Made by a program: the position numbers and the translations under genes. A DNA stretch of 55,706 nucleotides from Candidatus Uhrbacteria bacterium RIFOXYC2_FULL_47_19 (lineage in GTDB: Bacteria; Patescibacteriota; Patescibacteriia; SG8-24). The stretch covers positions 1-55,706 of the forward strand of contig MGFG01000026.1 of NCBI GenBank assembly GCA_001791745.1, read 5' to 3'. Each line of letters starts with the position of its first letter. Position 1 is the stretch's first letter. The notes beneath the pieces are model-generated. The model did no database searches and was not told the origin of the DNA. It was given only the letters and a program-made list of their open reading frames with translations. Positions 2,916 to 55,706 of this stretch are shown here, piece by piece.

Positions 2916-3100
2916 GCACCGGTTGGTAGCAAGACTGTTACGAAATAACGGCTTTTGTTTTTGTAAGATTTTTTGTTTGATGGACACGATTAAAATCGTA
3001 AACTAAGCTGAAGCGAGGGTGGTTAGTCTTTAGGATCAAATAATGACCATAGGATTGTTGCTTTTGATCTAAAATAAGCCAAAAAATTCGAATTTGGGAT

Positions 3101-4075: not shown

Positions 4076-4105
4076 TTTTAGCTTAAGAAGATCTTTTTAG
4101 ATAAC

Positions 4106-4134
4106 AAAAACCCCGACTTGCATCGGGATTTTTT
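4106..4134. terminator. Bidirectional intrinsic terminator between holA and rpsT
   Basis: AAAAA-CCCCGA-CTTGCA-TCGGGA-TTTTTT hairpin between convergent genes. Confidence 0.7.
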
Positions 4135-4141
4135 GGCTTTT

Positions 4142-4423
4142 CTACTTAGAAGCCTTTTTAGCAGCCTCTTTTCTGATACCGATCGTTAGGCGTGATTTGA
4201 TGCGTGAAACAGTGTTCTTTTTGAGGACTCCGTTTTGCGCTGCCTTATCGACCGATTTCACTACACTCTTGGCTAAAGCTTCAGCCTTCTTGATATCTCC
4301 AGCTTCCAAGGCTTTACGAGCCTGCCTTCGGAGATAAGTCACGTTTTCTTTGACTCTCTTATTGCGCGCTTCCCGGGTTTGGGTCTGGCGCAAGGCTTTC
4401 ATTGCCGACTTTTTGTTGGGCAT
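4142..4423 (-). CDS. rpsT: 30S ribosomal protein S20
   Basis: MPNKKSAMKALRQ...RN...DKAA..GV.KKN..SR.KSRL. Confidence 0.97.
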   Translation of the reverse strand: MPNKKSAMKALRQTQTREARNKRVKENVTYLRRQARKALEAGDIKKAEALAKSVVKSVDKAAQNGVLKKNTVSRIKSRLTIGIRKEAAKKASK

Positions 4424-4491
4424 AAACGACTATTTCTTAGTTGTTCCAGGATTCAGAGACAACGGGATGATAGCTCAAGCTGCTCTGGTCG

Positions 4492-5478: not shown

Positions 5479-5746
5479 AGTATCCTAGAGTATATGTCTT
5501 AAGGCTTTCCTTCGGAAGGTTAAGCGGTGGATAAGAATTTAGATCCTCAAAAACCACCGTCTCCATTTAAGAGATTAAATATATTAATATAGTATTTTAC
5601 GACGCATCTTTTTAGCTTATTTATCATAAAATTTAAAGATTACCTCTCTAGTTTTTCGAGTAATTTTTTAAGTCAAAGTCTTCGCTTAATCGAACTTTAG
5701 AATCTTCACAAACCCGAATTATCATGTTATACTCATTCGCGAGCTG

Positions 5747-5821
5747 GTCCCTGTAGCTCAATGGATAGAGCAGATCTCTCCTAAGGATAAGATGGAGGTT
5801 CGACTCCTCCCGGGGACACCA
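5747..5821 (+). tRNA. tRNA-Arg(CCT)
   Basis: Acceptor GTCCCTG/CGGGGAC, anticodon loop CT-CCT-AA, GGTTCGACTCC T-arm, encoded CCA. Confidence 0.92.
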
Positions 5822-5916
5822 CTTGAGCGTATATTCACACATGTGCATAAACTGTTACTACTGTGGATATAAAGAAATCATTAAAGATTTTTAAGGCTTA
5901 AAATAAAAAAGTATTA

Positions 5917-5992
5917 GGGCCCGTAGCTCATCTGGTAGAGCGCTGCGTTCGCATCGCAGAGGTGAGGAGTTCGAGTCTCCTCGGGTCCACCA
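5917..5992 (+). tRNA. tRNA-Ala(CGC)
   Basis: G3:U70 pair, anticodon arm CTGCG-TTCGCAT-CGCAG, TTCGA loop, CCA. Confidence 0.95.
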
Positions 5993-6023
5993 TGCCCTAT
6001 AGCAATCAGTTTAATAGGGAACC

Positions 6024-6050
6024 AAAAAAACCAGAGAGATCTGGTTTTTT
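6024..6050 (+). terminator. Terminator after tRNA-Ala
   Basis: AAAAAAACCAGA-GAGA-TCTGGTTTTTT. Confidence 0.7.
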
Positions 6051-6372
6051 GTTTCTCGTGTAACTTGTTTTAGGTAATAATTTTTTATTACCTGCAAAAT
6101 CTTGGATCTTAGCCTAAGGGATTTTTTAAGAAATTAATTAGTGGGGATTTTTTGAAGTTTCTTATGAAACAAGGAATCAAATTTTTTTCTTCATAAGAAT
6201 GAGCCTTTTTCTAAGGAAGACGGAGAGAGGTGTTTTATCTTTTTAAGATTTTTGTGTTTTTAAGTTGTAAAACTTACTAATTTTGATTTTTTATCTTTTT
6301 AAAGTAGTTTTTTAATTTAAGCTTATTTTATAATTGTACGACACTATAAAGATGATTAGGATTAATTATTTT

Positions 6373-6511
6373 TTATCCACATCCATAAAAATTGATTGTG
6401 GATAATTCCTTTTTAAGATTAGAAATTCTTTAAAGTAATCCACAGAAGTTTTTATCCACAAAGAAATAATAGAAAAAGACCTAAGATTAGCGAAAAAAAC
6501 AGTGTTGATAA
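6373..6511. promoter_or_regulatory. Cluster of DnaA boxes in AT-rich intergenic DNA
   Basis: TTATCCACA 6373-6381, TGTGGATAA 6397-6405, TAATCCACA 6436-6444, TTATCCACA 6452-6460, TGTTGATAA 6503-6511. Confidence 0.75.
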
Positions 6512-6513
6512 CT

Positions 6514-6542
6514 TTGACCATAGCTCAGAAAAATGTTACCAT
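6514..6542 (+). promoter_or_regulatory. Sigma70-type promoter of the surface gene cluster
   Basis: TTGACC-17 bp-TACCAT with an extended -10 TG. Confidence 0.6.
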
Positions 6543-6551
6543 ATTATATGT

Positions 6552-7385
6552 ATGGGGAGGGCAATGGTAAAAAACAAAATGGGGATTTTTAAGATAAAAA
6601 AAACGATATATTCAGAATCCATTTTTTTGGTGATGGTTTTTACCGTCATTTTTTTTGCCTGCTGGTCTGGTGATGCAGTTGAGGCTATGAGTTCAGCTAA
6701 TTATGAGGTTACTGGTGACACCATCAGTATTGGGGGAGGTAACTCTAGTTCTGCAAGTTACGTTGCTGAAGACACTTTTGGTGATATAGCCTCAGGCGAA
6801 GACCTACAAAGCGCTAATTACAGTGGATGTTCAGGCTTTCAGTGCGTCGATGGGTCACCTTATATCAGTTTTTCCGTGAAAGAGGGGACTTCAAAACCTG
6901 GTGTGGAGGGGACAGGGGTAGCTCTGGGTTCGCTTTCTACCTCTTCAGTTACGACCTCTGATGGAGTGGGTGTAAATTCAGTCTTTGTTTTAACTGAAAC
7001 ATCTGCAGATAACGGATTGGCAGTCGGAGTCATTAGCACTTATTCTGGCTTAAAGCGATTTTCAACCTCAGACATCATCAGTTCTTCTTCGGCCACACTC
7101 TCTGCTGGTAGTGAAGGATATGGAGTTTGTGTTGGTTCAGCTGCTGAAGATTTAGACAGCCCAGATACACTTTCAGCTTCTGCGCCTTACGATGGAGTTT
7201 GTAATAAAGTCAACGGTCATGATGTGGGTTTGGTGGATGGTACACTTCGAACGATTGTTGATTCCTCGGGACAGATTAAAGGTGGAGATATTGAGATATT
7301 GGTCAAGGCCTCAATAAGTCCAGTCTCTGCAGCTGGTAATGATTACATTGATACACTGACCTTTATAGCGACAGGAACTTATTAG
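6552..7385 (+). CDS. Secreted pilin/WxL-like subunit (minor); start may be 6564 or 6579
   Basis: Signal peptide ending near AVEA, MSSANY N-terminal motif, Ser/Gly-rich beta protein, C-terminus AGNDYIDTLTFIATGTY. Confidence 0.7.
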   Translation: MGRAMVKNKMGIFKIKKTIYSESIFLVMVFTVIFFACWSGDAVEAMSSANYEVTGDTISIGGGNSSSASYVAEDTFGDIASGEDLQSANYSGCSGFQCVDGSPYISFSVKEGTSKPGVEGTGVALGSLSTSSVTTSDGVGVNSVFVLTETSADNGLAVGVISTYSGLKRFSTSDIISSSSATLSAGSEGYGVCVGSAAEDLDSPDTLSASAPYDGVCNKVNGHDVGLVDGTLRTIVDSSGQIKGGDIEILVKASISPVSAAGNDYIDTLTFIATGTY

Positions 7386-7422
7386 AGTTTTATCGATATT
7401 CAGGCCTCCTTATTAAGGAAAT

Positions 7423-8598
7423 ATGGAAAAGACACTCAAAAAAATGTTGGCCAAATTAGCAGTGATTTCACTGTTGGTGTCTTCTTTCATGGTTGTTGGC
7501 CCAGTCGAAGCTAATAGCTTCACTTCCATGAGTGACACCATGACGCGCCTTAAGACGAGTACTACAGCTGATCACACGATCGGACTGACCCTTCCGGCTA
7601 CTTATAATTTTGATGCCACTGGTAGTACTGATGTGATTATGATCGACTTTCCTGCAGCTAACTTTGTGATGGGTGGTGTTTGGGCAACAACCGACTTTAC
7701 TTTTAGTGACGGCACCTCTAGGACGATAAACGCTATTAATCAAGGTGCAGGCATCACCACAGTTGTTTGTGCTGATGGTGCTAATAATGTTGGAGTAGCG
7801 ATAGACACGACAGCACTGGATTTTCGGGTTATGCCTTGTGGTTCCAGTTATACTCCACAAGTAGCTGGTGCAACTATTGCCTTTACAATTGATGGGACAA
7901 CAACTGATGGGACTTTAACTAATCCAGCGGCGGCAAATACCTATACGATTAGTTTGGCCATGACCGACGAGGGTTCAGTTAACGCTCACACTGGTAGTAT
8001 TTCAATCGGTGTAGTGGACAATGATCAAGTCGCCGTTTCAGCCAACATAGATCCCACTATTACCTTTGATATAGACACTTCGACTAATATCGAGGCCGAT
8101 ACAGCGACTCCGTATACCGTTTCTTTTGGGACAGTTACTACGGCGGATAGCAGAGTCTCTGGTGATACCGACTCTGTTAATTACATATTATTAGATCTAG
8201 CTACTAATGCAGCTTCAGGTGCATCTATAACCATACAAAATGCGAATGGCACATCCGGTATGGTGTCAACCTCTACTCCAGCCGATACCATAGATAATTC
8301 TGATGGGGCCATTGCCGACGGAACTGAACGTTATGGATTTTGTGTTAACACTACTACCTGGACATCTGGTTCACCTTTGACGATCAGTGCTGATTATCTT
8401 GGTATGACCTGCAATGCTGATGGTGAAACCAACGATGTCGAAGACCTTAATACTAATGGCAAGAGTATTGTCGAAGCAGCTGGTCCGATTGCTGGAGGGC
8501 GTGCGGTCATAGTGGCCAATGTTTCTGTTAGTGCAGTTACCGAGGCTCATGATGATTATGCAGATACACTGACTTTTGTGGCTACGGCTACATTCTAG
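7423..8598 (+). CDS. Secreted two-domain pilin/WxL-like subunit (probable major)
   Basis: Signal peptide (PVEA), Thr-rich. C-domain paralogous to 6552 (YG.CV, DY.DTLTF.AT.T[FY]); N-domain paralogous to the start of 9730. Confidence 0.72.
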   Translation: MEKTLKKMLAKLAVISLLVSSFMVVGPVEANSFTSMSDTMTRLKTSTTADHTIGLTLPATYNFDATGSTDVIMIDFPAANFVMGGVWATTDFTFSDGTSRTINAINQGAGITTVVCADGANNVGVAIDTTALDFRVMPCGSSYTPQVAGATIAFTIDGTTTDGTLTNPAAANTYTISLAMTDEGSVNAHTGSISIGVVDNDQVAVSANIDPTITFDIDTSTNIEADTATPYTVSFGTVTTADSRVSGDTDSVNYILLDLATNAASGASITIQNANGTSGMVSTSTPADTIDNSDGAIADGTERYGFCVNTTTWTSGSPLTISADYLGMTCNADGETNDVEDLNTNGKSIVEAAGPIAGGRAVIVANVSVSAVTEAHDDYADTLTFVATATF

Positions 8599-8620
8599 GT
8601 CAGTTGAACAATAAGAGCTT

Positions 8621-9658
8621 ATGGAGGAGACAAAAAAAATCGGTTTTAACCATTCCAGTGGAACAAAGAAAACCGTGCTAGCCATCAGCTCTAGTTTTTT
8701 GTTACTAATAGCTGTGTTTTTTCCGCGAGGAACGGAAGCGTTGACTCTTTCTCCACCACATTTTGATTATTCTTTGAATGCAGAGGATTCCGTTTTAGAT
8801 GTTATCAAGCTATTTAATGAGACTAATTCGACCGAAGTTTTTTATCCGATAGTAATGAACTTTGGGGCGAGCAACAACGAGGATGGTACGCCCAGATTTT
8901 ATCCAGCCTCTGAGGATAGATTAGGTGAAGGGATGGCGGAGTGGATTAGTATTGAGACCAACAAAATAGAGCTTGCTCCTGGTGGACGTTATAATCTGCC
9001 GTTTTCCATTAACCTTCCAAAGGAAAATGTAAAACCGGGCGGTCATTATGGAGCGATATTACTTTCTTCGTCTCCGCCGTCTCAGGACGGTGGCGCTGTT
9101 GGTGTGGCGTCTCAACTAGCAACGATAATTTTGGTTCGTGTATCGGGTGATGTGCAAGAGATTGGTGGTATAGCTGAGTTTGGCTTCTCTGATCCCCAGC
9201 CTTGGTATAATCATCTGCCAGTCGAGATGTTCATGCGTTTTGAAAACGCCGGTAATGTACATCTGAAACCAACTGGAAATTTAATCATAGAGAATTGGTA
9301 TGGCCGAAAAGTAGCTGATATTGGAGTCAATCCTGAGGCTAAAAATGTATTACCGTTGAGTATACGTAAGTTCGTCTTCGGATGGGGTAGTAAGATTAGT
9401 GACGAAGAGATGGGTCCAATAGAGACAGAGTTCCGGAACTTTGCTTTAGGTAAGTACACCGCTCGCTTGGTGATTAGTTACGGTACTACTAGTCAGGTGC
9501 TAGCTGCTGAGAGGATTTTTTATGTTTGGCCTTGGAGATTGATGCTGGTTATTGGAGTCGGTCTGATCGCACTTTTGATTATTTTAGTGGCGTTGAAGCG
9601 AGCCTACGATCGATCTCTCATTAAAAAGTTTAGTCGGACCAAGGGTGGTAGACTCTGA
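8621..9658 (+). CDS. DUF916/WxL-interacting-like membrane-anchored protein
   Basis: Signal peptide, LSPP start, LFN, WI, PGGHYGAI, FENAGNVHLKP.G, VLP.S.R, GKYTA, C-terminal TM helix and basic tail. Confidence 0.72.
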   Translation: MEETKKIGFNHSSGTKKTVLAISSSFLLLIAVFFPRGTEALTLSPPHFDYSLNAEDSVLDVIKLFNETNSTEVFYPIVMNFGASNNEDGTPRFYPASEDRLGEGMAEWISIETNKIELAPGGRYNLPFSINLPKENVKPGGHYGAILLSSSPPSQDGGAVGVASQLATIILVRVSGDVQEIGGIAEFGFSDPQPWYNHLPVEMFMRFENAGNVHLKPTGNLIIENWYGRKVADIGVNPEAKNVLPLSIRKFVFGWGSKISDEEMGPIETEFRNFALGKYTARLVISYGTTSQVLAAERIFYVWPWRLMLVIGVGLIALLIILVALKRAYDRSLIKKFSRTKGGRL

Positions 9659-9729
9659 TTCAGAAAATTGTATTTTTGGGATAGGGAAAGCTTGGACTGA
9701 CCCGATTAGGAGGAAAGGAGTTAATCAAA

Positions 9730-12700
9730 ATGAAAAACAAACGGACAACCTATCATCCGTTTGGGCTGAATAGGAAACTATCCCGCCTTAATTTGGTTAT
9801 AGTTACAGCTTTTGTTGTCATTGTTATTTTGACTTCGGCTGTATTATCTATCCAGGTTGCGTCTGCTCTCAATTTTAGTCTTCGTGATCTGATTTCCAAT
9901 CAAGCAGCTAATGGGTCTTCTGCCCATCGGATAAGTTTCAATCTTTCTGGTGCCAATACATTTACATTCGGGGAAGAGATTATTGTAGATTTTCCTGCCG
10001 ATTTTATACTTGGCGGAATTTGGGATGTTACCGACTTTACTTTTACTGATAGTTTGACCAGGACAGTGGATGCGGTTGATTCTGGTCCGGGGGTAGATAC
10101 AGTTGCTTGTGCTGACGGCGCTCTAAATGTTGGTGTGGCCATCGATACTACAAATAATATCTTTAGGGTCATACCTTGCGGAGGTTCTTTTACTGCTAGT
10201 GCAGCTAGTGCTGCAGTGGTTTTTACCATAGCTGGTGTTGGAGCGAACGGAATATTGATGCTTAATCCAGCTTTCCCCGGCAGTTACATCATATCTGTAA
10301 CTGACGCAGCTGGAGATTGTTCCAGTGGTTGTGACATGGCGGTTTCAATCATTGATGCCTCAACAGTTTCAGTTTCGGTTGAAGTAAGTAGTGGTCCGGT
10401 CTGCGGTAATAGTGTGATTGAGGCTGGTGAGACTTGCGACGATGGTAACGTGGTTTCTGGCGATGGCTGCAGTGCACTCTGTGCGCTGGAGGGTGCTGGA
10501 CCACCTCCACCTGGTGACGTTACACCTCCAGTCATCACCTATCATTGTGCCACTACCATCAATAGAAATTCGGCGGTTATTACTTGGGAAACCAATGAAG
10601 CAGCCAATTCTACCATTCAATGCGGGTTGACCGCTGCCTATGGGCTAACCGTTTTTAATCCATCATTCGTTGTTTCTCACAGTTTGACTATAAATGATTT
10701 AGCCGAAGGGACACTCTATCATTGTCGAGCTTGTTCCAGTGATTCTCCTGGTAATTCAACTTGTTCGTCAGATTGCACCTTTACAACTTTAGATGAAACT
10801 CCTCCAATTATTTCTGATCTGTCTTGTGCTGACATTACTACCACATCTTTTCGGGTGACCTGGAATACCAATGAGAATGCGTCCTCGTTCATTGATTATG
10901 GGTTAGAGGTCGGTCCACCTTATCCCACCAATGCTGGAGCAGCAGAATTAATTCTAGCTCATTCAGTTACGGTTTCTGGATTATTACCAGCTACTACTTA
11001 TCATTATCGAGTGCGAACTGGCGATGCTTCTAGTAACGAGGCTTTATCGGCTGACCTGACTTGCACGACCAGTGACGGTGCTATTGTTCCGCCAGTGATT
11101 TCGAATATTAGAGTGACGGATATCAGTTGTGTAGCTCCAGTTTCTGCTACGGTTCGTTGGGACACTAACGAAGCCGCAGATTCAAAAGTCGATTATGGCC
11201 CAGTAGTTGGTCCTCCATATACGAATTTAGCTTCCACCCCGGCTGATTTGCTGAGTCATATCATAACCTTGACCGGACTGAGTACCGGGCAAACTTATCA
11301 TTATCGAGTTAGATCGGAAGATCCGACTGATCTCGAGACGGCCAGTGCTGATAATGTTTTTATTACACCTAGTGGGAGTCCACCGGTGATTTCTGGGATA
11401 TCTACTTCTGATATAACAGCTGGATCGGCCACTATTTTATGGTCTACCGATGTCAGTTCTAGTTCATTGGTCGACTATGGTCCGACGGTTGCTTATGGTA
11501 GTGATCAAAGTAATGTTTCTGCGGTTTTGGCACACTCCTTAGTTATTCCCGGACTCAATGCTTGTACTACTTACCACTATCGAGTTAGGTCGGGGCACGC
11601 CTGTGCAACGGAGACGGTTTCGGTGGATCAGAGTTTTACCACTACTGCACTAGCCATGCCAGTTATTTCTGATCTTGAAGTTACTCATATCGGTGAGAAC
11701 TCCGCTCGTGTTTCGTGGACCACTGCTACACCAACCAGTTCAACTGTTGATTATGGTCCAACTGTTGCCTATGGTCAGGTTTCATCTGCGCCAGGCTTAA
11801 CACTTAATCATCTGGTCGTCATTAGTGGTTTGTTACCTGGTACCACCTATCATTTTCGTGCTCGATCCGAAGATACCTGCAATCAGGGGACTGCGACTGA
11901 CGATGGTACTTTTAGTACCATTCCCGATTTAATACCGCCAGGATGCGTCATGAATCTGGTCGCCAATCCTGGTAGCGCGGTAATTCGTCTCGGCTGGACT
12001 AATCCACCAGATGCTGATTTGCAAGGTGTACGTTTAGTTCGTCGTCAGGGTGTTTGTCCAGCCGGCCGTGCTGATGGGATGACGGTTTATGATGGTTTAG
12101 AGAATTCTTTTGATGATTTCGGTGTAGTGAATGGGCTGAATTATTGTTATGGAGCCTTTGGTTATGATGAAGCGGGTAATTTTGGTTGTGGGGCGATCGC
12201 TTCTGCAACTCCGGTTGGTCCGGCCGACGTAGTACCACCTGCTTGCTCAGCGGGTTTTACTGTCTCGGTTGGTAATAGGCAAATCACTTTGAATTGGAGT
12301 AATCCAGCTGATCGCGACTTTGCTGGAACACGCATTGTGCGGCGAACGGACCGTTTCCCAGTCGATAGGTCAGATGGAACAGTCATTTTTGATGGTGCTG
12401 GTACTGGTTGGACTGATGTTGGTCTGGTTAATGGCACTACCTATTATTACGGGGCATTTTCTTATGACTTATCGGGAAACAATTGTGCTGGCGTGTTTAA
12501 CCAAGGGGTGCCAGCCGCTGGAGTGGATTTAGTGCCTCCAGTTTGCGCTTCCGGCCTGACTGCAACAGCCGGAGATAGTCAGGTTTTGGTCGTTTGGAGT
12601 AATCCAGCTGATCCAGGATTGTCTGGAACACGCATTGTTCGACGGGATGATCATGCACCAACTGGACCTGCTGATGGCCTAGCTGTCTTCGAGGGAATTG

Positions 12701-48758: not shown

Positions 48759-49257
48759 ACATGAAAAAACTGAGCAGATTATTCTTGGCATAGATCCGGG
48801 CTATGCAGATATGGGCTACGGTTTAATTTCACGTTCTTGTGGTCGTGATCGTTGTTTGGCTTACGGTAGCCTGCGGACTGCGGCTGGTGCACCAACTGGA
48901 GAACGTTTGCAGGATATTCACGATGGTTTGGTGAAGTTAATAACAGAATTTCATCCAGATCAGGCAGCTGTTGAGCGATTATTTTTTTCTAGAAATGCTA
49001 AAACCGCAATTCCAGTGGCTGAGGCACGTGGGGTGATCCTTTTATGCCTAACTCAACAGGGTGTATCGTGCATTGAATTTAGTCCGGCCGAGGTAAAGAT
49101 GGCCGTTTGTGGACACGGACGAGCAGATAAGACAGAGATGCAGAAGATGGTTCAGATTCTTCTTAGATTAGAGCAGTTGCCAAGACCAGATGATGCAGCC
49201 GATGCGTTGGCTCTGGCCTTGGCCTTGGCTAGTACTAATGTACCAATAATGGTTTAG
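48745..49257 (+). CDS. ruvC: Holliday junction resolvase
   Basis: ILGIDPG, VERLFF..N, ARGV, VK.AV.G.G.A.K, DDAADALA. Start placed at ATG 48745. Confidence 0.93.
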   Translation: MLNYKHEKTEQIILGIDPGYADMGYGLISRSCGRDRCLAYGSLRTAAGAPTGERLQDIHDGLVKLITEFHPDQAAVERLFFSRNAKTAIPVAEARGVILLCLTQQGVSCIEFSPAEVKMAVCGHGRADKTEMQKMVQILLRLEQLPRPDDAADALALALALASTNVPIMV

Positions 49258-49360
49258 GGTCATTTTTTAATTTAAAATTAGCGAAATTGGAGAGCGGATT
49301 TCGATTCCGCTCTTTTCAAGTCCTCAAAAAAGTGCTATACTTAGCCTAATAAAAACAAAC

Positions 49361-50128
49361 ATGGATCTTCGAATTAAAATAGGTGTCGGAGTAGTGTTGG
49401 TTTTCTGCTTGTTCGGAAATAGCAGTGTGGCCTCGGTCTCGGCTGTAACTGAGCTAGATACCGACGGTGACGGTTTGACCGACAGGTTAGAAGAGACGGT
49501 CTACTTTACCGACCGATTAGTTTCGGATACCGATGGTGATGGTTATGCCGACGGGCTCGAGATAGTGAACGGCTACTCGCCGCGCCATGCCGATGAACGT
49601 CGTTTAGTTGATGTAGATTCGGATCTGGACTACTTGAACGACGACTGGGAGATAAAATTAGGCACTGGATTACTGAACCCCGACTCGGACGGGGATTTAT
49701 TTTTGGACGGAACCGAAGTAGCGGCTGGATTCGATCCAATTAGTTTGGAGCCAGTGAAGTTGGAGAAATTAATTCGGGTTGATGATAAGAATTTAACTCT
49801 GACTTACAGTTTTGGTGGACGGGACTTGGATACGATTCCTGTTTCAACAGGCAAACCAGGTATGCCGACTCCACGGGGCGAGTTTACGATCTTGGACAAG
49901 ATTCCGGTCAAACACTATGGCGGTCCAGGTTTCGACTTGCCTAATACCAAATGGAATTTGCTGTTTACCCGCAGTTCCTCCGGTCTGGGCTATTACATCC
50001 ACGGTGCCTACTGGCACAATCTGTTCGGTAAGGCTCGTGTTTCGCATGGCTGTGTCAACGTCAGATATGCTGATATGGAGCGTCTTTACTTTTGGACCCA
50101 GCAGGGGACGAGGGTGGTGGTGGAATAG
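49361..50128 (+). CDS. L,D-transpeptidase (YkuD) with DxDxDG Ca-binding repeats
   Basis: Signal peptide, four D.D.D repeats, VSTG, TP.G.F, IHG...SHGCV catalytic motif. Confidence 0.92.
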   Translation: MDLRIKIGVGVVLVFCLFGNSSVASVSAVTELDTDGDGLTDRLEETVYFTDRLVSDTDGDGYADGLEIVNGYSPRHADERRLVDVDSDLDYLNDDWEIKLGTGLLNPDSDGDLFLDGTEVAAGFDPISLEPVKLEKLIRVDDKNLTLTYSFGGRDLDTIPVSTGKPGMPTPRGEFTILDKIPVKHYGGPGFDLPNTKWNLLFTRSSSGLGYYIHGAYWHNLFGKARVSHGCVNVRYADMERLYFWTQQGTRVVVE

Positions 50129-50172
50129 GGTTTCTGTTACATTAAGCTAAATAAGTTTTTCACTTGGTTTTT

Positions 50173-51693
50173 ATGCCGACAAGAAGAGGGATCCAATCCG
50201 AAACGACACATGAAAAAGGATTTAATTCAGAGGTAGATAGGGAATGCGGTGAATCTCCCGTTTCGGCTGACTTTGGTTCCTTTCAAGAAGCCAGAAAGAA
50301 GCTGGGCAAACAACTCTTGGATCGGACACGTGACGAAGAGGAGATGTGTGTTACCTCTCCGGAAGAGGCGGCTGGACTAAAAGTTTTAGCTCGATTCGGT
50401 CCGTTGTCCATCCGTGAAGTGGAAAGCAAGGAAGTCCTGCGTGGAGATGCGAATTTCTCTAAATCCTTGTCGAGTTTTTGCAGCTCGGTTAGAATGTTTC
50501 TGTCTCAAAAAGATAGAGAACACCTGCAGATCTACAGTTTGGTTTCCTATTTGGAACGGTGTGCGGGTTCTGGATACATGGACGAGATAGAATTTGAGTG
50601 TTGGGGACGCGAAGAAAAGACAAATTTCAACAAAAACTTTGAGGTAATCGACAGACAGCGTCGCGGACGTGATTCCATCCGTATCTTTTACGTCAGAAGA
50701 AAAATTGAGGTTGATAGGGTTCGTCTTGAGATGGCGATGAGATTGGTGCAAGAAATCATTTCCGAAAGCGATAAATTACATGACGGCAGGTATCGGGGAA
50801 CGGTGCCTGATTCTGTCATCACGGAAAATAGAAATGTTATCTACAAATTCATCAAAAGTTTTTCTGGAGAGGAGGGGATAGAACTTCCGTGCGTTATGGA
50901 CAGCGTTACGGCTAAGTTCGCTGTAGTCGACGATCGCGTTCTCTCCAAGAGCCGGGAAAGTGAGGAGAAGAAGGATCGACTGGAAGTCAGTTTTGACTTG
51001 AGTCTCCTGACGGAAAAGGAGGTGGGTGAGATTCCTGACGCCCTGCTGCGGCTCGGAAAGATCAGCATACCCAAAAGTAGCCTGTCAGTCCTGATCGGAT
51101 ATAACGGATCGGGTAAGACCACATTGTTGAATTCCCTGCGCGTGGCCGCCAGCCACTTCGGCAGACGTTTAGGAGAGGACTATAGTGACATAGCCTGTGA
51201 TCTTGAGAAAAGAGAGTATTGGAACGGTTCCATACCGACCTTCGTTCCTAGTTTTGCCCGTACCATGGATATCGGTGGTCTCTCGGTTCCGGAAGGTGAG
51301 AATAGCGTTATCTATCTTAATTTTTCGAGATTCGCTCAGAACATAGCGTCACACAACGATTTATCGGCCAACCCACTGTCCAACATGATGAGGAAGCAGA
51401 GCGTCAACCAAGGATCGACAGGCGAATTGCAGTTGGCTTTCTTCGAGGATTCGATAAAAAAGTTTAACTTAGGTGAGTTTAAGGGTCTTTTGCTGATAGA
51501 CGAGCCGGAAAAGGGGCTTGATCCATGGAAGTTGCGGGACATGAAGAGACGGATCAGGGAAATGGCTCCGCAGGCGACCGTTATCGTAGCCACCCATAAT
51601 CCCATGCTGGCCTTCGATAAGGAGATAAGGAGGATAGACCTGCGTTTCCCAGAGAGGGGTTACCACGAGAACCAAGAGGAAGAAATGTTCTGA
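50173..51693 (+). CDS. Protein with C-terminal ABC-type ATPase domain and unknown N-terminal 270 aa
   Basis: Walker A GYNGSGKT, degenerate signature STGE, Walker B LLIDEPE, H-loop VATH. Confidence 0.75.
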   Translation: MPTRRGIQSETTHEKGFNSEVDRECGESPVSADFGSFQEARKKLGKQLLDRTRDEEEMCVTSPEEAAGLKVLARFGPLSIREVESKEVLRGDANFSKSLSSFCSSVRMFLSQKDREHLQIYSLVSYLERCAGSGYMDEIEFECWGREEKTNFNKNFEVIDRQRRGRDSIRIFYVRRKIEVDRVRLEMAMRLVQEIISESDKLHDGRYRGTVPDSVITENRNVIYKFIKSFSGEEGIELPCVMDSVTAKFAVVDDRVLSKSRESEEKKDRLEVSFDLSLLTEKEVGEIPDALLRLGKISIPKSSLSVLIGYNGSGKTTLLNSLRVAASHFGRRLGEDYSDIACDLEKREYWNGSIPTFVPSFARTMDIGGLSVPEGENSVIYLNFSRFAQNIASHNDLSANPLSNMMRKQSVNQGSTGELQLAFFEDSIKKFNLGEFKGLLLIDEPEKGLDPWKLRDMKRRIREMAPQATVIVATHNPMLAFDKEIRRIDLRFPERGYHENQEEEMF

Positions 51694-51754
51694 TGGTGGG
51701 GTCGAATCCCATCAGAACGGTTACCGCCCCTATCTGCCCGTCCGATTCCCGTCG

Positions 51755-51811
51755 TTCCGCCTCGAACGAAACAGCCGCCACCCGCAAGAGGTGACGGCCG
51801 TTTCATGGAGC
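51755..51811. repeat. 57-bp direct repeat, left copy (target-site-like)
   Basis: 54/57 identical to 54714-54770; contains the tRNA-Gly end TGGAGC and a hairpin. Confidence 0.9.
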
Positions 51812-52163
51812 TGTTTTTATGCGGAAGCTCGAACTTTTTTTGAAGAGAACATTTGAGAAAGTGTTTCATTTCGCTCCGCTTTCGCTCGCAAATTTTTGAG
51901 AAATTTGCGTTTCAAAACAGAAAAATTTTCCTCCAATTTTTTCGATTTCGCGCCCCCCCAATTTTTCAAAAAAGGAAAAGAAAATTTTTGTTTTGGATTT
52001 TTGTGAAACAAAAAGGCGGAAGCGGGGCTACGGCCTACGAATAAAAGGAAAGCGTACTTGACCCACCCAAACCCATTCGCGCACGCTTAAATCAATATAA
52101 CTCCCTTTTGGGATTTTAGCAGGGGTTTAGCGCCTTTTGTAAAATTTAAAAAGGCTTGGCAGC

Positions 52164-52206
52164 TACTTTACTTGACTAAATCACTGCACTATGCTAAAGT
52201 GCCAGT
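52164..52206 (+). promoter_or_regulatory. Leaderless promoter with two overlapping ACTTTA-N6-TAAAGT-like operators
   Basis: TTGACT 52172, 17 bp spacer, TAAAGT 52195, then GCCAGT-ATG; sites ACTTTA-cttgac-TAAATC and ACTGCA-ctatgc-TAAAGT. Confidence 0.7.
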
Positions 52207-52521
52207 ATGGATTGGAATGACAAAGGAAAAGAGCAGTTAATAAAGGCAATTTTATTGCTTAAAAACGCTGATGAAACACAGCGATTTTTGCGTGACTTGA
52301 TGACAGAAAAAGAAATCAAGGAGTTCGCAAAACGACTAAAAGCAGCGGAAATGCTTACAGAAAAAATACCATATTCTACAATCGAAAAAGAGACTGGCTT
52401 AAGTTCAACTACTGTTGCTCGTGTTGCAAAGTGGTTAAATGGAAAAGGCGGTGGCTACAAAATAATTATAAATAAACTCCATCATCATAACTCTATCCAA
52501 TCACGGAGAGGGTTGTCTTGA
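52207..52521 (+). CDS. TrpR-like YerC/YecD (HisR-type) repressor with C-terminal His3
   Basis: FLRDLMT..E......RL.AA.ML, Y..I..ETG.SSTTVARV helix-turn-helix. Confidence 0.9.
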   Translation: MDWNDKGKEQLIKAILLLKNADETQRFLRDLMTEKEIKEFAKRLKAAEMLTEKIPYSTIEKETGLSSTTVARVAKWLNGKGGGYKIIINKLHHHNSIQSRRGLS

Positions 52522-52581
52522 TGTAATTTCTCATCATCGCATGAACATAACCCCCTCCGTAATTGGAGGGGGTTTACGTTT
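52480..52581 (+). promoter_or_regulatory. His-codon transcription attenuator embedded in the repressor 3' end
   Basis: CAT CAT CAT 52480-52488; mutually exclusive 1:2, 2:3 (13/14 pairs) and 3:4 (10 bp) helices. Confidence 0.75.
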
Positions 52582-52632
52582 GCCTACCCACAATAAAACG
52601 GTAAACACAGTTCTTTAAAAAAGGAGAGAATC

Positions 52633-53520
52633 ATGCAGAAGCTCATCAGTTACTTCACAGACGGAATCTCGTCGGGGACGCTTCAGACAATTGGAGCGGA
52701 AGTCGAAACGCAGTTTGTGGACAAGGACGGCAAAGCAGTCCAGACCCAAACGTCTCAACAAATGTTGAGACACCTCGCCGAAAATGGTTGGGAAGTTGAT
52801 TGCCGTAAAGACAATCTCATCACAACCCTTGTTGATCAGAACGACAACAAAATTTTCTACGAGCTTGGCCGTCACAACATGGAGGTTTCAACGGCGGCCT
52901 CAACTTCCGCTTGCGTCCTCGATGTTATGCGGAAATGTCTTGCTCAACTCTACGAGTCCGCTCGAAGAGTTGGTGCGGAGCCGTTCTTCGCACCGATACT
53001 ATTTGGCGAAGAAGACCTACTGGTCATTCCCGACGAGAGAGACGCAGTCTGGTTGGAATTGGACGGACGAAACGCCCTTGCTCCGCTTGCGCGTACGTCA
53101 TCGGTTCAATTCACAATCTCGGTTTCTCCGCAGGATGCCATGAAAATCTTGAACAAGTTCGGGAAAAAGGTCGGTTCGTTCTTGACGGATTTTCCGCAAG
53201 ACGCGGTTTGGAAACGATACATCGTGGACTCGTCCGCGAAATATCTTTCTAACCGGTATGGTGGTCCTCTGGCATTCGAGTCGTTGGAGGATTACTGCCA
53301 AGCTCTTGTCCGACACGATGTTGTTCAAGGAGCGCGTCTCGTGCCGTTTCAGGATGTTAGTAATCTGGAGATATCTCTCTACCTACGCAGTATTTGGTGG
53401 CACTTCAGGCTCAAGCGTTATGGCAACGCTTTGTGCATTGAGGTACGCCCCATGGCTCGTAGGACAGACGAACAATTCCAACACCAACTAGATAAGGTGT
53501 TGGCAATCGTCTGCGCATAG
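52633..53520 (+). CDS. Glutamate--cysteine ligase (GCS2)-like carboxylate-amine ligase
   Basis: IGAEVE, YELG..NME, SSVQF, W..R.K, IEVR; AAGGAG Shine-Dalgarno. Confidence 0.65.
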   Translation: MQKLISYFTDGISSGTLQTIGAEVETQFVDKDGKAVQTQTSQQMLRHLAENGWEVDCRKDNLITTLVDQNDNKIFYELGRHNMEVSTAASTSACVLDVMRKCLAQLYESARRVGAEPFFAPILFGEEDLLVIPDERDAVWLELDGRNALAPLARTSSVQFTISVSPQDAMKILNKFGKKVGSFLTDFPQDAVWKRYIVDSSAKYLSNRYGGPLAFESLEDYCQALVRHDVVQGARLVPFQDVSNLEISLYLRSIWWHFRLKRYGNALCIEVRPMARRTDEQFQHQLDKVLAIVCA

Positions 53521-53546
53521 CGCAAAAACCTTGTGTGGTCTAACGA

Positions 53547-54374
53547 CTACACAAGGCTTTCTTTTTCTTCGCCTAAAAGAAAAACTTCGTCGCCAACTTT
53601 TGTGCCTTTGTGAGCAAAGAGTATTAGACTTTGCTTTGAAGTTTTTACTTCTTCTTGTCCGTCAATTCCGATAAGTTGATTTTCTTTCAACACCTCAAAA
53701 TTCTCAAATAGCTTCGACAAAGTAAATTTATCTGTTTTTGCGAAATATTTTTTGAACATTCGAACGTAGGCCTGTTTTTGCGGAATAAGATTATTTTTTA
53801 TGTGTCCTCTCGCTTTCAGAAAAGCAAAAACACTTTCTTCCGCTATTTTTATTGATTGTGGATCTTTCATGTAGCCACACTCCAAGCATATTCCCACTTT
53901 CCCAATACTGTTCATGTAATAATCTGTTCCACCCGGTTCTACTTTGTCGAAGCCAGACACTACAAGGTTAATTGGAAAAAATTTTACAATTTCTTTTGCA
54001 TTTGCTTCGCAAATTGCAAACGCCTTACTGTTTGGGATAGAGCTTGCATGTATATCGAGAAGTGCCTCGGCTTCGTTAAGATAATTTTTCAGAAATTGGG
54101 CGCGACCATATTCATAACTTTCTTTCTCACTTGTGGTAAATTGTTCATTGCGATTGAACATTCTATTCAAGTTGACTTCTGTATATCGTTTGTTCGTTTC
54201 AATCGCTCGCGGGTTTCCATAGCCAAATAAAACTGTCCCGCGCTCAATTTCGAGGTTTGGTAAAATTTTTTCCAATGCTTCCACTCCGCATTTTTCGTCA
54301 CCATGCACACCAACTAGAACGATACTGATCGTCCCTTTTTCTCTACCGTTGAGTTGAATTATTTTTTCAAACAT
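53547..54374 (-). CDS. Succinylglutamate desuccinylase/aspartoacylase family Zn hydrolase
   Basis: GVHGDE, NLNR, LDIH, LECG. Confidence 0.9.
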   Translation of the reverse strand: MFEKIIQLNGREKGTISIVLVGVHGDEKCGVEALEKILPNLEIERGTVLFGYGNPRAIETNKRYTEVNLNRMFNRNEQFTTSEKESYEYGRAQFLKNYLNEAEALLDIHASSIPNSKAFAICEANAKEIVKFFPINLVVSGFDKVEPGGTDYYMNSIGKVGICLECGYMKDPQSIKIAEESVFAFLKARGHIKNNLIPQKQAYVRMFKKYFAKTDKFTLSKLFENFEVLKENQLIGIDGQEEVKTSKQSLILFAHKGTKVGDEVFLLGEEKESLV

Positions 54375-54409
54375 ACTGGCACTTTAACAAACTAAAGCAA
54401 CCAGGTCAA
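54375..54409 (-). promoter_or_regulatory. Leaderless promoter with overlapping operator
   Basis: Minus strand TTGACC-17 bp-TAAAGT-GCCAGT-ATG; operator ACTTTA-acaaac-TAAAGC at 54381-54398. Confidence 0.7.
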
Positions 54410-54713
54410 GAGGAGTGAATGCCGTTGGGAATTTCGCAATGTCGCCAGCGTTGGGTTGGGTGGGACAATGGCGACCAAAAGTATAAATGGCTATAATAAT
54501 TGCTTCTGCCGTCCAGCTCTTTCGAAAAAGAGACTGGACTTCCAAAACAAAAATTTTCTTTTCCTTTTTTGAAAAATTGGGGGGGGGCGCGAAATCGAAA
54601 AAATTGGAGGAAAATTTTTCTGTTTTGAAACGCAAATTTCTCAAAAATTTGCGAGCGAAAGCGGAGCGAAATGAAACACTTTCTCAAATGTTCTCTTCAA
54701 AAAAAGTTCGAGC

Positions 54714-54783
54714 TTCCGCCTCGAACGAAACGGCCGCCACCCGCAAGAGGTGACGGCCATTTCGTGGAGCGGGTGACGGGAAT
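54714..54783. repeat. Right copy of the 57-bp direct repeat, extended by a 19-bp duplicate of the tRNA-Gly 3' end
   Basis: 54765-54783 TGGAGCGGGTGACGGGAAT equals 54973-54991. Confidence 0.9.
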
Positions 54784-54972
54784 TTCGCGTTGCGGTCCGA
54801 TCCATCTGGACTGGACCGCTTCCTTGCCTGGGTTGCGTCCGGTCCTGCACTAGTTCGGACCGGCCGACGCTCGGCTCGTCGTTCCTAGATAGGAACAACG
54901 AGCCTCACTTTCAACCCGTTCGATTCCCATATTATCTGCAACTCAAAACCGGCCTGTTGGCCGGTTTTGGCA

Positions 54973-55046
54973 TGGAGCGGGTGACGGGAATCGAACCCAC
55001 GTAGCCACCTTGGAAGAGTGGTGTTCTACCATTGAACTACACCCGC
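54973..55046 (-). tRNA. tRNA-Gly(TCC)
   Basis: GCGGGTG acceptor, anticodon loop CT-TCC-AA, U73 discriminator, CCA. Confidence 0.95.
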
Positions 55047-55076
55047 TTATTTTTATTTACTTCAATAACAGTTGAG

Positions 55077-55152
55077 TGGTCGGGGCGGGGAGATTCGAAC
55101 TCCCAATCCCTTGCTCCCAAAGCAAGTGCCTTAGCCATTAGGCCACGCCCCG
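55077..55152 (-). tRNA. tRNA-Pro(TGG)
   Basis: CGGGGCG acceptor, CTTGC-TTTGGGA-GCAAG, CCA. Confidence 0.95.
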
Positions 55153-55185
55153 TCGCAACAAATCTTAGCAAAAATCGACTTTCCA

Positions 55186-55222
55186 TGGTGCCGAGGGCCA
55201 GGATTGAACTGGCGACACGAGG
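55186..55222 (-). repeat. Duplicate 3' half of tRNA-Phe
   Basis: 37 bp identical to 55250-55286. Confidence 0.9.
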
Positions 55223-55249
55223 CCCCAGCGAAGAACTTTTTCCAGATCG

Positions 55250-55324
55250 TGGTGCCGAGGGCCAGGATTGAACTGGCGACACGAGGATTTTCAGTCCTCT
55301 GCTCTACCACTGAGCTACCTCGGC
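55250..55324 (-). tRNA. tRNA-Phe(GAA)
   Basis: GCCGAGG acceptor, GAGGA-CTGAAAA-TCCTC, CCA. Confidence 0.95.
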
Positions 55325-55386
55325 ACGCACCACGGTCTGGGAAATGTTTTAAGCGGATAAAATATGGCCGCACGCGCTAGCGTGCT

Positions 55387-55417
55387 GTCCTCTGCTCTAC
55401 CACTGAGCTACCTCGGC
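55387..55417 (-). repeat. Duplicate 5' half of tRNA-Phe
   Basis: 31 bp identical to 55294-55324. Confidence 0.9.
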
Positions 55418-55529
55418 ATTACGGAAAGCCGATTTTTTATCTTTTCAAGTTGACCATTTTGTTTTTCGGGTTAGATAGTCAGAGTTGATAATCGACTTAA
55501 ACTATCGATCTATCTAGCTAGCCTTGATC

Positions 55530-55706
<177 letters not shown>

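What the first reader, a model, noticed from the sequence alone, without database searches (positions are those of the whole stretch)
51755..54783. Integrase-free cassette with 178-bp TIRs that duplicated a 57-bp palindromic tRNA trailer on insertion
Seen: DR(57)-TGTTTTTAT-TIR-cargo-TIR-DR(57). Removing the cassette restores one long imperfect palindrome, ATTCCCGTC..CCGC..ACGAAA.GGCCGCCACC-loop-GGTGACGGCC.TTTCGT..GCGG..GACGGGAAT, whose right arm is the tRNA-Gly 3' end. The junctions fall on opposite arms, at TGGAGC and TTCCGC, the latter shared with the TIR tip. The TIR tip holds a T-loop mimic (GTTCGAG) and the left junction reads WSCFYAEARTFFEENI-stop, reminiscent of a recombinase tail (unverified). 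Known: DDE target duplications are usually 2-14 bp, tRNA-site integrases do not leave long TIRs, and Cas1-type integration duplicates a palindromic repeat by staggered attack. Inference: an undescribed tRNA-palindrome-targeted mobile cassette, recent given the near-identical TIRs.
Basis: partly seen in the sequence, partly recalled or inferred. Interest (0 to 1): 0.85.

Follow-up and report, generated by a model that had tools for sequence, protein, structure and literature searches.

The report
Orphan cargo module of tRNA-targeting recombinase element
The repeat-framed three-gene cassette is real, but it is a leftover cargo piece of a common, apparently undescribed mobile element of ultra-small bacteria that inserts at tRNA gene ends with a serine recombinase, not a new kind of transposon.

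Summary
The direct repeats (57 nt, 54 of 57 alike) and the inverted repeats (177/179 nt, differing only in a homopolymer) are real, unique in the genome and carried by contigs of independent runs. The inverted repeats are not transposon ends. They are the "B arms" of a family of Patescibacteria elements. In that family a large serine recombinase (LSR) gene, framed by its own inverted repeat, abuts a tRNA 3' end, and a second inverted-repeat pair frames variable cargo.

The left junction of the window is a canonical family junction:
- the crossover falls at the tRNA-Gly acceptor end;
- a T-loop-like motif lies 5 bp further out than in a tRNA;
- the arm tip encodes the conserved C-terminal tail of the recombinase;
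- a conserved hairpin lies further inside the arm.

The right arm lacks its tip. It joins native sequence at a 6-nt homology, and the LSR module is gone. The 57-nt repeat is the native palindromic terminator after tRNA-Gly. It was most likely duplicated by a secondary rearrangement, not by staggered cutting.

The genome holds two LSR genes elsewhere. This scan has met the family many times on other DNA; my four literature searches found no description of it.

The parts
51733..51762 (+). Degenerate tRNA-like 3' end (T-loop-like and acceptor-like) that forms the left outer arm of the native palindrome
   Evidence: Read directly. The analogous plus-strand tRNA-like end lies before the palindrome in G002. 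ARAGORN and Rfam do not call it a tRNA.
51755..51811 (.). Left copy of the 57-nt direct repeat: native tRNA-Gly trailer with palindromic hairpin, ending in the crossover core TGGAGC
   Evidence: Terminators of the same design follow tRNA-Gly directly in G002 and G009.
51806..51856 (+). Recombinase tail exon in the arm tip (WSCFYAEARTFFEENI, stop at 51854-51856). It starts at the crossover core.
   Evidence: In silico circle junctions of 16 relatives give the LSR a tail with the same [IVL]R[TI] core in 15 of 16 (RTFF itself in 8); the window frame reads ARTFFEENI-stop.
51812..51997 (+). The T-loop-like motif lies at the attP-type distance from the crossover.
   Evidence: The nhmmer B-arm model is matched to its last position. 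The motif register is -24, as in 35 of 40 relatives. Arm identity.
51910..52001 (.). Conserved hairpin element inside the arm (mirror copy in the right arm at about 54541-54625)
   Evidence: 22 sequences, 17 predicted pairs, 15 of them with compensatory double changes. Homologues sit in B arms of LSR loci and in 120 of 401 genomes of the class at E <= 0.01, many of those hits weak.
52207..52521 (+). Cargo gene 1: YerC/YecD TrpR-related regulator
   Evidence: Pfam PF01371 E 3e-20; TIGR02531 E 8e-21.
52633..53520 (+). Cargo gene 2: 295-aa protein with no Pfam or NCBIfam hit. The glutamate-cysteine-ligase-like (GCS2) assignment is a lead only.
   Evidence: Searches give no family. ESM Atlas neighbours carry PF04107 in 30-97% of members.
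53547..54374 (-). Cargo gene 3: AstE/AspA-family (succinylglutamate desuccinylase / aspartoacylase-like) hydrolase
   Evidence: PF24827 E 1.4e-20. NCBIfam hits lie below their cut-offs.
54541..54719 (-). Right B arm, truncated at its tip (lacks the last ~12-17 nt and the core)
   Evidence: The nhmmer match stops at model position 196 of 213. In the alignment of the two arms the outer 9 nt do not match.
54714..54770 (.). Right copy of the 57-nt direct repeat. Its first 6 nt (TTCCGC) are shared with the arm, giving a junction at microhomology.
54765..54783 (-). 19-nt copy of the tRNA-Gly 3' end. With the right repeat copy it re-creates an unoccupied attB-like junction.
   Evidence: (family D10).
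54784..54972 (.). 189-nt spacer (structured sequence plus terminator) between the 19-nt copy and the intact tRNA-Gly: a separate small insertion
   Evidence: 81% identical to G001:C8, with changes that keep the hairpins.
54973..55046 (-). tRNA-Gly(TCC), the target tRNA

Best explanation
The cassette is the cargo module of a tRNA-targeting large-serine-recombinase (LSR) element of Patescibacteria. It has lost its recombinase module and is now stranded.

Layout of intact relatives, read along the tRNA strand: tRNA, crossover at acceptor nucleotides 71-73 / CCA, arm A, LSR gene, arm A inverted, core inverted, arm B, cargo, arm B inverted, core, native tRNA trailer. The A-inverted/B junction is an intact, inverted spare copy of the element's attachment site (attP). 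The outer junctions are attL and attR. The B-arm tip is the attP half-site: a T-loop-like motif 5 bp further from the crossover than the tRNA's own T-loop. The tip also encodes the recombinase's proper C-terminal tail, which is joined to the gene only in the excised circle or after the LSR module flips.

In the window the left junction is such an attR. The native trailer is a palindromic terminator, which is the 57-nt repeat.

Shown: family membership of both arms, the canonical left junction, the truncated right arm, the native origin of the palindrome, and the absence of a recombinase gene in the cassette.

Inferred: after a normal integration at tRNA-Gly, a second event at a 6-nt homology (TTCCGC) joined the right arm to a second copy of the trailer. 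TTCCGC is present both near the arm tip and at the tRNA-like end left of the palindrome. Two routes are possible. One is unequal exchange between sister chromosomes, followed by excision of the complete element copy. The other is deletion to a circle that re-entered by homology within the palindrome. Either route removes the LSR module, restores an attB-like junction next to the tRNA fragment and leaves the palindrome on both sides.

The cassette now has one att-type junction only, so recombinase-mediated excision is not expected. Loss would have to go through recombination between the 57-nt repeats.
For: Family context:
- Homologues of the arm core occur as inverted pairs around other cargo, for example a type III restriction-modification system in G052.
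- In 6 loci the neighbouring inverted-repeat pair holds an LSR gene next to a tRNA. The LSRs carry Resolvase, Recombinase and Zn_ribbon_recom domains.
- Of 80 LSR loci from genome contigs, 61 have an inverted repeat bracketing the LSR. Of those 61, 41 abut a minus-strand tRNA and 20 have an abutting second pair with 0.75-7.4 kb of cargo.
- Anchored on the discriminator base, 35 of 40 B arms carry the T-loop-like hexamer at -24 against -19 in the tRNA. This is the 5-bp attP/attB shift described for serine integrases (PMC3783163, passages read).

The window itself:
- The left junction is in the same register.
- The left arm matches the B-arm model to its end, whereas the right arm stops at position 196 of 213.
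- The tail exon matches the family tail, which appears in 15 of 16 in silico circle junctions.
- The conserved hairpin is present and shows covariation.

Native origin of the palindrome: there is a single-copy analogue after the YkuD orthologue in G002, and a terminator of the same design directly follows tRNA-Gly(TCC) in G009.

Decay of such elements is common in this genome. One example is a 41-nt palindromic stub between two B-arm tips on C29; another is a single B arm with no LSR next to tRNA-Ser on C27.

The repeat copies differ at 3 of 57 positions and the arms at 0 of 177.
Against: - The secondary event is reconstructed, not observed. No intermediate, complete relative of this cassette or excised form was found: the exact-match scan of metagenome contigs found 0, and no joints appear in the contigs laid.
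- A 6-nt junction homology is also what a recombinase acting at a pseudo-site would leave, so the enzyme behind the right junction is open.
- Long direct repeats that span a terminator and tRNA ends recur nearby: 71 nt on G000 C4 and about 56 nt in G001 C22. That could point to a regular process that I have not identified.
- G002's palindrome lies at tRNA-Gly(GCC), not tRNA-Gly(TCC), so it is an analogue rather than a strict empty site.
- No LSR in this assembly has a tRNA-Gly-type core. The C12 copy is Ser-type; the C13 copy could not be typed.
Confidence: 0.7

Rival explanations
1. This is a non-autonomous transposon with 178-bp terminal inverted repeats. An unknown enzyme inserts it into the palindromic tRNA trailer by attacking the two arms of the palindrome on opposite strands, and repair then duplicates the 57 bp between the cuts (Cas1- or casposase-like, or DDE-like with an extreme stagger).
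For: - The layout direct repeat / inverted repeat / cargo / inverted repeat / direct repeat is real.
- The repeat ends fall on symmetric features of the palindrome.
- Two other long duplications bounded by tRNA-end features exist in this genus.
Against: - The two ends are not equivalent. The left arm runs 9 nt plus a core further than the right arm and fits the family consensus to its last position.
- The arms belong to a family with an LSR partner and conservative junctions. The junction tables of the 20 two-module relatives show only a 3-18-nt core at the boundaries; I ran no direct-repeat scan on them.
- No Cas1 or DDE gene lies in the cassette.
- The repeat copies are more diverged than the arms.
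Confidence: 0.08
2. The cassette is still a working unit. Either it is an invertible segment flipped by recombination between its arms, or it is a module that the genome's own LSRs (C12, C13) move in trans.
For: - The arms are identical over 177 nt, so homologous inversion is possible.
- Two LSR genes exist in the genome.
- In 5 of the 80 LSR loci a plus-strand tRNA lies within 400 nt upstream of the LSR, the opposite of the usual layout, so modules do flip or enter either way.
Against: - Only one canonical att-type junction is left; the right tip and core are missing.
- The C12 recombinase sits at tRNA-Ser with a different core, and no tRNA-Gly-type LSR is present.
- No inverted or excised form appears in contigs of 4 runs, which is weak evidence because contigs drop rare forms.
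Confidence: 0.12
3. Assembly artefact: the repeats and junctions are chimeric joins in a metagenome bin.
For: - The contig ends 900 nt further on, in duplicated tRNA fragments with many alternative joints.
- Repeats of this family often break contigs.
Against: - Contigs from different runs and studies cover the left junction, the right junction and the arm-to-cargo joins without differences.
- The same architecture recurs in 61 of 80 independent loci; one of the 80 (L101) is titled a complete chromosome.
Confidence: 0.02

Closest known systems
Large serine integrases of phages and integrative elements (A118/LI, Bxb1, phiC31, SPbeta SprA)
   Same: - Same three domains in the family's recombinase.
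- Short shared core at the crossover.
- attP-type half-site motif 5 bp further out than the attB-type motif, as described in PMC3783163 (passages read).
   Different: - The target is the acceptor end of many different tRNAs: 8 tRNA types among 41 loci.
- attP lies inside the 3' end of the recombinase gene.
- Every complete element keeps a second, inverted attP copy with 50-330 nt of flanking identity.
- The window's copy has no recombinase at all.
Dehalococcoides ssrA-specific genomic islands with the CcrB-like serine recombinase DsiB (McMurdie et al. 2011, PMC3146451; passages read), and SCCmec-type cassette arrays (SCCmec recalled)
   Same: - A serine recombinase inserts islands with variable cargo at the tRNA-like 3' end of a small RNA gene.
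- Arrays form in tandem.
- Recombinase-less members are read as cis-mobilisable or fixed remnants.
   Different: - Those islands are flanked by 20-bp direct repeats of the ssrA end, with the crossover in the T-loop.
- That paper does not contain the term 'inverted repeat'.
- Here the cores alternate in orientation, the arms are long inverted repeats, and the crossover lies at nucleotides 71-73.
Yeast 2-micron plasmid (two long inverted repeats, each carrying the recombinase site; recalled, not read)
   Same: The inferred circular form would carry two inverted copies of a long site that divide it into a recombinase segment and a cargo segment.
   Different: - 2-micron uses a tyrosine recombinase (FLP), has no integration at tRNA, and its inversion serves copy-number amplification.
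- No free circle of this family was seen here. In viral contigs 19 relatives were found, only 3 of them close, and all 3 lie at contig ends.
Casposons / Cas1 integration and DDE transposons
   Same: Inverted repeats at the ends of a cargo-bearing unit next to a tRNA gene, plus a flanking direct repeat.
   Different: - No Cas1, polymerase or DDE gene is present.
- The ends are asymmetric.
- The junctions fit serine-recombinase sites.
- At 57 nt, the repeat is far beyond the 14-15 bp recalled for casposons.

Membership tests
tRNA-targeting LSR elements of Patescibacteria with a spare inverted attP (as defined by the loci) | B arm whose tip carries a T-loop-like motif starting 24 nt from the crossover (attP-type spacing) | tested here: met
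   The window's left junction has the motif in the same register as 35 of 40 relatives. The left arm matches the B-arm model to its last position.
tRNA-targeting LSR elements of Patescibacteria with a spare inverted attP | Crossover at acceptor nucleotides 71-73 / CCA of a tRNA | tested here: met
   The left arm is preceded by TGGAGC, the complement of the tRNA-Gly end. The same hexamer heads the 19-nt tRNA-Gly copy at 54765-54783.
tRNA-targeting LSR elements of Patescibacteria with a spare inverted attP | Arm tip encodes the conserved C-terminal tail of the recombinase | tested here: met
   51806-51856 reads WSCFYAEARTFFEENI-stop. A tail with the same core appears in 15 of 16 in silico circle junctions.
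tRNA-targeting LSR elements of Patescibacteria with a spare inverted attP | Conserved hairpin element inside the B arm | tested here: met
   (15 of 17 pairs with compensatory changes).
tRNA-targeting LSR elements of Patescibacteria with a spare inverted attP | LSR gene bracketed by its own inverted repeat between the tRNA and the cargo module | tested here: not met
   No LSR lies in the window near the cassette. The LSR genes of the genome lie on C12 and C13. The locus is therefore filed as a remnant, not a complete member.
tRNA-targeting LSR elements of Patescibacteria with a spare inverted attP | Both arms complete, each ending in the core | tested here: not met
   The right arm stops at model position 196 of 213 and has no core.
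Large serine recombinase (for the family's enzyme) | Resolvase catalytic domain with the serine, plus recombinase domain and zinc ribbon | tested here: met
   Pfam finds all three domains in 4 of 4 proteins tested, including both G000 copies. An invariant R-K-S motif lies near the N-terminus in the alignment of 5. Activity is not testable here.
Transposon with target-site duplication (DDE or Cas1 type) | Equivalent termini and a transposase or casposase gene or partner | tested here: not met
   The termini are unequal. None of the three cargo proteins hits a transposase or Cas1 family.
Transposon with target-site duplication (DDE or Cas1 type) | Direct duplication of the target flanking the element | tested here: inconclusive
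   A 57-nt repeat is present, but it differs at 3 of 57 positions, starts in a 6-nt homology with the arm, and the junction tables of the 20 complete relatives show only a short core; no direct-repeat scan was run on them.
Integron gene cassette (attC) | attC site with inverse core and core sites, cassettes in one orientation, and an IntI tyrosine recombinase | tested here: not met
   By reading, the palindrome lacks a good GTTRRRY / RYYYAAC pair (consensus recalled). The cores alternate in orientation in relatives. The associated recombinase is of the serine type.

The most novel reading that the evidence does not exclude
The long direct repeat is not an accident. Where two tRNA-like 3' ends face each other across a palindromic terminator, the recombinase sees two inverted attB-like sites. 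By acting on one site in each of two sister duplexes, or by entering at one site and leaving by the other, it duplicates the terminator and strands cargo modules without their recombinase. This would be a regular route by which these elements hand genes over to the chromosome. Alongside this, the covarying hairpin kept in both arms would be a single-strand function, for example priming of the complementary strand after uptake of either strand. That would explain why the attachment region is carried twice in opposite orientations.
Probability: 0.2. Interest if true: 0.8.

Novelty: new variant of a known kind. Interest (0 to 1): 0.6.

Why it matters
Candidate-phyla-radiation bacteria have tiny genomes and few recognised routes of gene exchange. 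It uses almost any tRNA end as a landing site, swaps cargo such as restriction systems and metabolic genes, and splits its own recombinase gene at the attachment site. That makes it a likely major vehicle of gene flow in these organisms, and a natural source of serine integrases whose half-site mimics a tRNA T-loop.

This locus adds the end of the life cycle. It shows how a cargo module, here a TrpR-like regulator with two enzymes under matching promoters, becomes fixed after the recombinase is lost. It also warns that long repeats around such modules can mimic a transposon with a giant target duplication.

Tried and rejected
- Repetitive extragenic palindrome (REP-like): rejected. The 57-nt unit has only these two copies in the genome.
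- Integron attC: rejected (see membership test).
- Known RNA in or beside the repeats: Rfam at E <= 1 gave only the tRNAs and sub-threshold chance hits. Rfam on four related loci gave only tRNAs.
- Model of independent TIR elements with palindromic attP and nested insertion: considered. Set aside because it would require the recombinase to use attL/attR-like hybrids as targets. The one-circle model with two inverted attP copies needs only attP x attB.
- The palindrome as a stub of a deleted LSR module: considered because such a stub exists on C29. Not favoured, because similar palindromes follow tRNA-Gly in G002 and G009 with no B arm and because the palindrome does not resemble the A arms of the two tRNA-Gly-type relatives.
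- Strict empty site: not found. G001 and G002 contigs end about 550-600 nt after the YkuD orthologue, or carry tRNA-Gly(GCC) there.
- Near-identical copies of the arm elsewhere: 0 exact matches of a 24-mer in metagenome contigs (records of this genome may be left out).
- Free circular forms: viral contigs gave 19 recombinase relatives, only 3 of them close and all cut by contig ends.
- Excised, inverted or empty forms: none among the contig joints of 4 runs. Contigs show presence, not absence.
- Cargo homologues in G040 and G009 (65-78% nt identity) have no B-arm match, so they do not show the cassette moving as a unit.
- Supplementary files of the two papers read were not available. Supplementary Figure S6B of PMC3783163 (ZD motifs of other integrases) could bear on the half-site comparison.


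Full report
**1.

The window is a whole contig (C26) of a 1.04-Mb, 34-contig genome. The 57-nt direct repeat lies at 51755-51811 and 54714-54770, with 54 of 57 positions alike. The inverted repeat lies at 51821-51997 and 54541-54719. Both are present and occur nowhere else in the assembly. The arms differ only by a 2-nt change in a C/G homopolymer. The repeat copies differ at three positions.

tRNA-Gly(TCC) lies at 54973-55046 on the minus strand, and a 19-nt copy of its 3' end lies at 54765-54783.

Logan contigs of four runs from three studies were laid on 49000-55706. They cover the left junction (49912-51835), the right junction (54541-54794) and the arm-to-cargo joins without differences. 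They show no joint that skips or inverts the cassette. The homopolymer length varies between runs. Chimeric assembly is therefore very unlikely.

**2. What the arms are**

A DNA search of 61 relatives showed an 83-nt piece of the arm at 77% identity in G052. There it forms a 300-nt perfect inverted pair around a type III restriction-modification system. In a sample of 401 genomes of the class, 120 had a match at E <= 0.01. Many of these were weak AT-rich hits. The best lay in inverted pairs 2-6.5 kb apart or at contig ends.

In the fetched loci the cargo pair abuts a second inverted pair, and six loci share one protein inside that second pair. That protein is a large serine recombinase (LSR) with Resolvase, Recombinase and Zn_ribbon_recom domains. 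The LSR pair abuts a tRNA 3' end. Neighbouring pairs overlap by a short core whose orientation alternates.

At that point I noted the model of a circle with two inverted copies of one long site, one of which is split on integration. Only afterwards did I look at the scan's earlier notes. They report the same family and the same reading on many other genomes. So this scan has found the family before on other DNA.

**3. The family, measured**

The best 80 loci are nearly all Patescibacteria MAGs. Counts over these 80 loci:
- 61 have an inverted repeat bracketing the LSR.
- 41 of those 61 abut a minus-strand tRNA: Gln 16, Ser 14, Asn 5, Gly 2, and Trp, Ala, Asp, His 1 each.
- 20 of the 61 have an abutting second pair around 0.75-7.4 kb of cargo.
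- 15 of the 19 without a repeat lie within 150 nt of a locus end.
- 5 have a plus-strand tRNA upstream of the LSR, that is, the flipped layout.

I then anchored the junctions on the discriminator base. The tRNA/A-arm junction, the inverted B-arm/A-arm junction and the B-arm/native-trailer junction share only nucleotides 71-73, often plus CCA.

The B arm carries a T-loop-like hexamer starting at -24 in 35 of 40 loci, against -19 in the tRNA itself. A 5-bp outward shift of the zinc-ribbon motif in attP relative to attB is what Rutherford et al. described for serine integrases (PMC3783163, passages read). The junctions therefore read as attL, an inverted intact attP, and attR.

The LSR reading frames have no stop of their own before the junction and run into the antisense of the tRNA. 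When the circle junction is rebuilt in silico, 15 of 16 loci give the LSR a conserved tail encoded by the B-arm tip.

The inner part of the B arm is a hairpin with 17 predicted pairs, 15 of them with compensatory double changes across 22 sequences.

Arm pairs are nearly perfect as a rule: 42 of 61 A pairs and 15 of 20 B pairs are at least 98% identical.

**4. The window in that frame**

Read on the minus strand, the left junction has the T-loop-like motif in the family register. The left arm matches a B-arm profile to its last position. The right arm stops at 196 of 213.

The frame across the left junction reads WSCFYAEARTFFEENI-stop, which is the family's tail exon.

The right arm ends in TTCCGC and continues directly into the second repeat copy. 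The same hexamer precedes the first copy, at the tRNA-like end on the left. The right copy is followed by the 19-nt tRNA-Gly end. That side therefore looks like an unoccupied attB.

No LSR gene is near. The genome's two LSR genes lie at contig ends on C12 (next to tRNA-Ser) and C13.

**5. The palindrome is native**

In G002 (same genus) the orthologue of the YkuD gene (49361-50128) is followed by a plus-strand tRNA-like end, then one similar palindrome, then a minus-strand tRNA-Gly(GCC). In G009 (same family, syntenic contig) tRNA-Gly(TCC) is followed at once by a palindromic terminator of the same design. The repeated unit is therefore the tRNA's own terminator. It is what an attR junction should be followed by.

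**6. How the 57-nt repeat arose (inferred)**

A normal integration would give this order: trailer, B arm, cargo, B arm, A arm, LSR, A arm, tRNA-Gly. The observed state differs only on the tRNA side. The last 12-17 nt of the B arm, the core and the whole LSR module are replaced by a second copy of the trailer, and the join falls at the 6-nt homology.

There are two routes to this state:
- Unequal exchange at TTCCGC between sister chromosomes, followed by excision of the complete element copy.
- Deletion between the two TTCCGC copies to a 2,959-bp circle, which re-entered an unoccupied locus by homology within the palindrome.

I cannot tell them apart, nor say whether the join was made by the recombinase at a pseudo-site or by the host.

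Points in favour of a secondary event:
- The unequal arms.
- The greater divergence of the repeat copies: 3 of 57 against 0 of 177, p = 0.014. Homogenisation of the arms could also produce this difference.
- The junction tables of the 20 complete relatives show only a short core and no long flanking duplication, though I ran no direct-repeat scan on them.
- Other decayed copies in this genome.

A point that keeps a regular mechanism open: two more long duplications bounded by tRNA-end features occur nearby, one of 71 nt on C4 and one of about 56 nt in G001 C22, each around a small structured insert.

**7. Cargo**

The cargo consists of a YerC/YecD TrpR-related regulator, a 295-aa protein with only a GCS2-like lead, and an AstE/AspA-family hydrolase. 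The two outer genes face inwards. Both start from closely similar promoter-like sequences that end in the same 15 nt before the ATG (read).

The trio occurs at 65-78% nucleotide identity in 2 of 60 other relatives searched (G040, G009). There it has its own 40-48-nt inverted promoter copies and no B-arm match. Cargo GC is 43% against 47% for the genome.

**8. Comparison and novelty**

The enzyme and the site logic are those of large serine integrases.

The closest described system that I could read is the Dehalococcoides ssrA islands. These also use a serine recombinase, target a tRNA-like 3' end, form tandem arrays and include recombinase-less members. But they have 20-bp direct repeats and a T-loop crossover, and the paper makes no mention of inverted repeats (PMC3146451).

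Four full-text searches were made, combining serine recombinase, tRNA, inverted repeats, attP and Patescibacteria or Candidate Phyla Radiation. Judged by listings and abstracts, none returned a paper describing this layout.

I file the family as a new variant of a known kind, and this locus as a decayed member of it. The specific claim of a giant target duplication by staggered attack is not supported.

Noticed in passing
window 54784-54972: A 189-nt spacer lies between the intact tRNA-Gly and the 19-nt copy of its 3' end. It is highly structured and 81% identical to G001:C8 5646-5766, with changes that keep the hairpins. Similar pieces lie about 100 nt downstream of tRNAs on G000 C21 (39044-39102) and C12 (4367-4431). 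[quoted passage not shown] Rfam finds nothing.
   Followed up: partly
G000 contig C4 11864-12103; G001:C22 (L157 1300-1530): A 71-nt direct repeat runs from the T-loop of a plus-strand tRNA-like end, through a terminator, to the T-loop of tRNA-Gly(GCC). It flanks a 98-nt GC-rich insert. Nearly the same insert sits at tRNA-Gly(TCC) in G001 with a repeat of about 56 nt. The mechanism is unexplained.
   Followed up: partly
window 55186-55706 (contig end): Duplicated tRNA pieces: a 37-nt and a 32-nt repeat of tRNA-Phe parts, and a 53-nt-period array of another tRNA's 3' end. Many alternative joints and very high summed depth appear in Logan contigs. This is either an assembly tangle in conserved tRNA sequence or further att-type duplications.
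   Followed up: no
window 50164-51693: A 509-aa AAA_21/ABC-type ATPase ORF is absent from the syntenic position in G001 and G002. It has weak NCBIfam hits to anti-phage ATPases (MADS3, PtuA), far below their cut-offs. It has replaced the body of the plus-strand tRNA-like gene that G002 has there.
   Followed up: partly
G000 contig C29 26072-26436: Two B arms face each other tip to tip across a 41-nt palindrome flanked by CCA and TGG. This is a recombinase module reduced to a stub.
   Followed up: partly
G000 contigs C12 8921-10599 and C13 1-1743: There are two LSR genes, each inside its own inverted repeat next to a tRNA. Each is cut by a contig end inside the repeat. The C12 protein is 86% identical to that of G074.
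   Followed up: yes
window 51949-51958 and 54576-54586: The C/G homopolymer in the loop of the arm hairpin is 7 nt in one arm and 9 in the other. It differs again in contigs of two runs (+3, +1).
   Followed up: no
L151 (LCCP01000005.1) 2563-10416: Three abutting inverted-repeat pairs in a row (two cargo modules plus the LSR module). The simple two-attP circle does not explain this without a further event.
   Followed up: no
window 52165-52209 and 54375-54420: The two outer cargo genes share a promoter-like sequence and the same 15 nt before the ATG. Homologous gene trios in G040 and G009 have 40-48-nt inverted copies at the same places. This suggests autoregulation by the YerC-like protein.
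   Followed up: no
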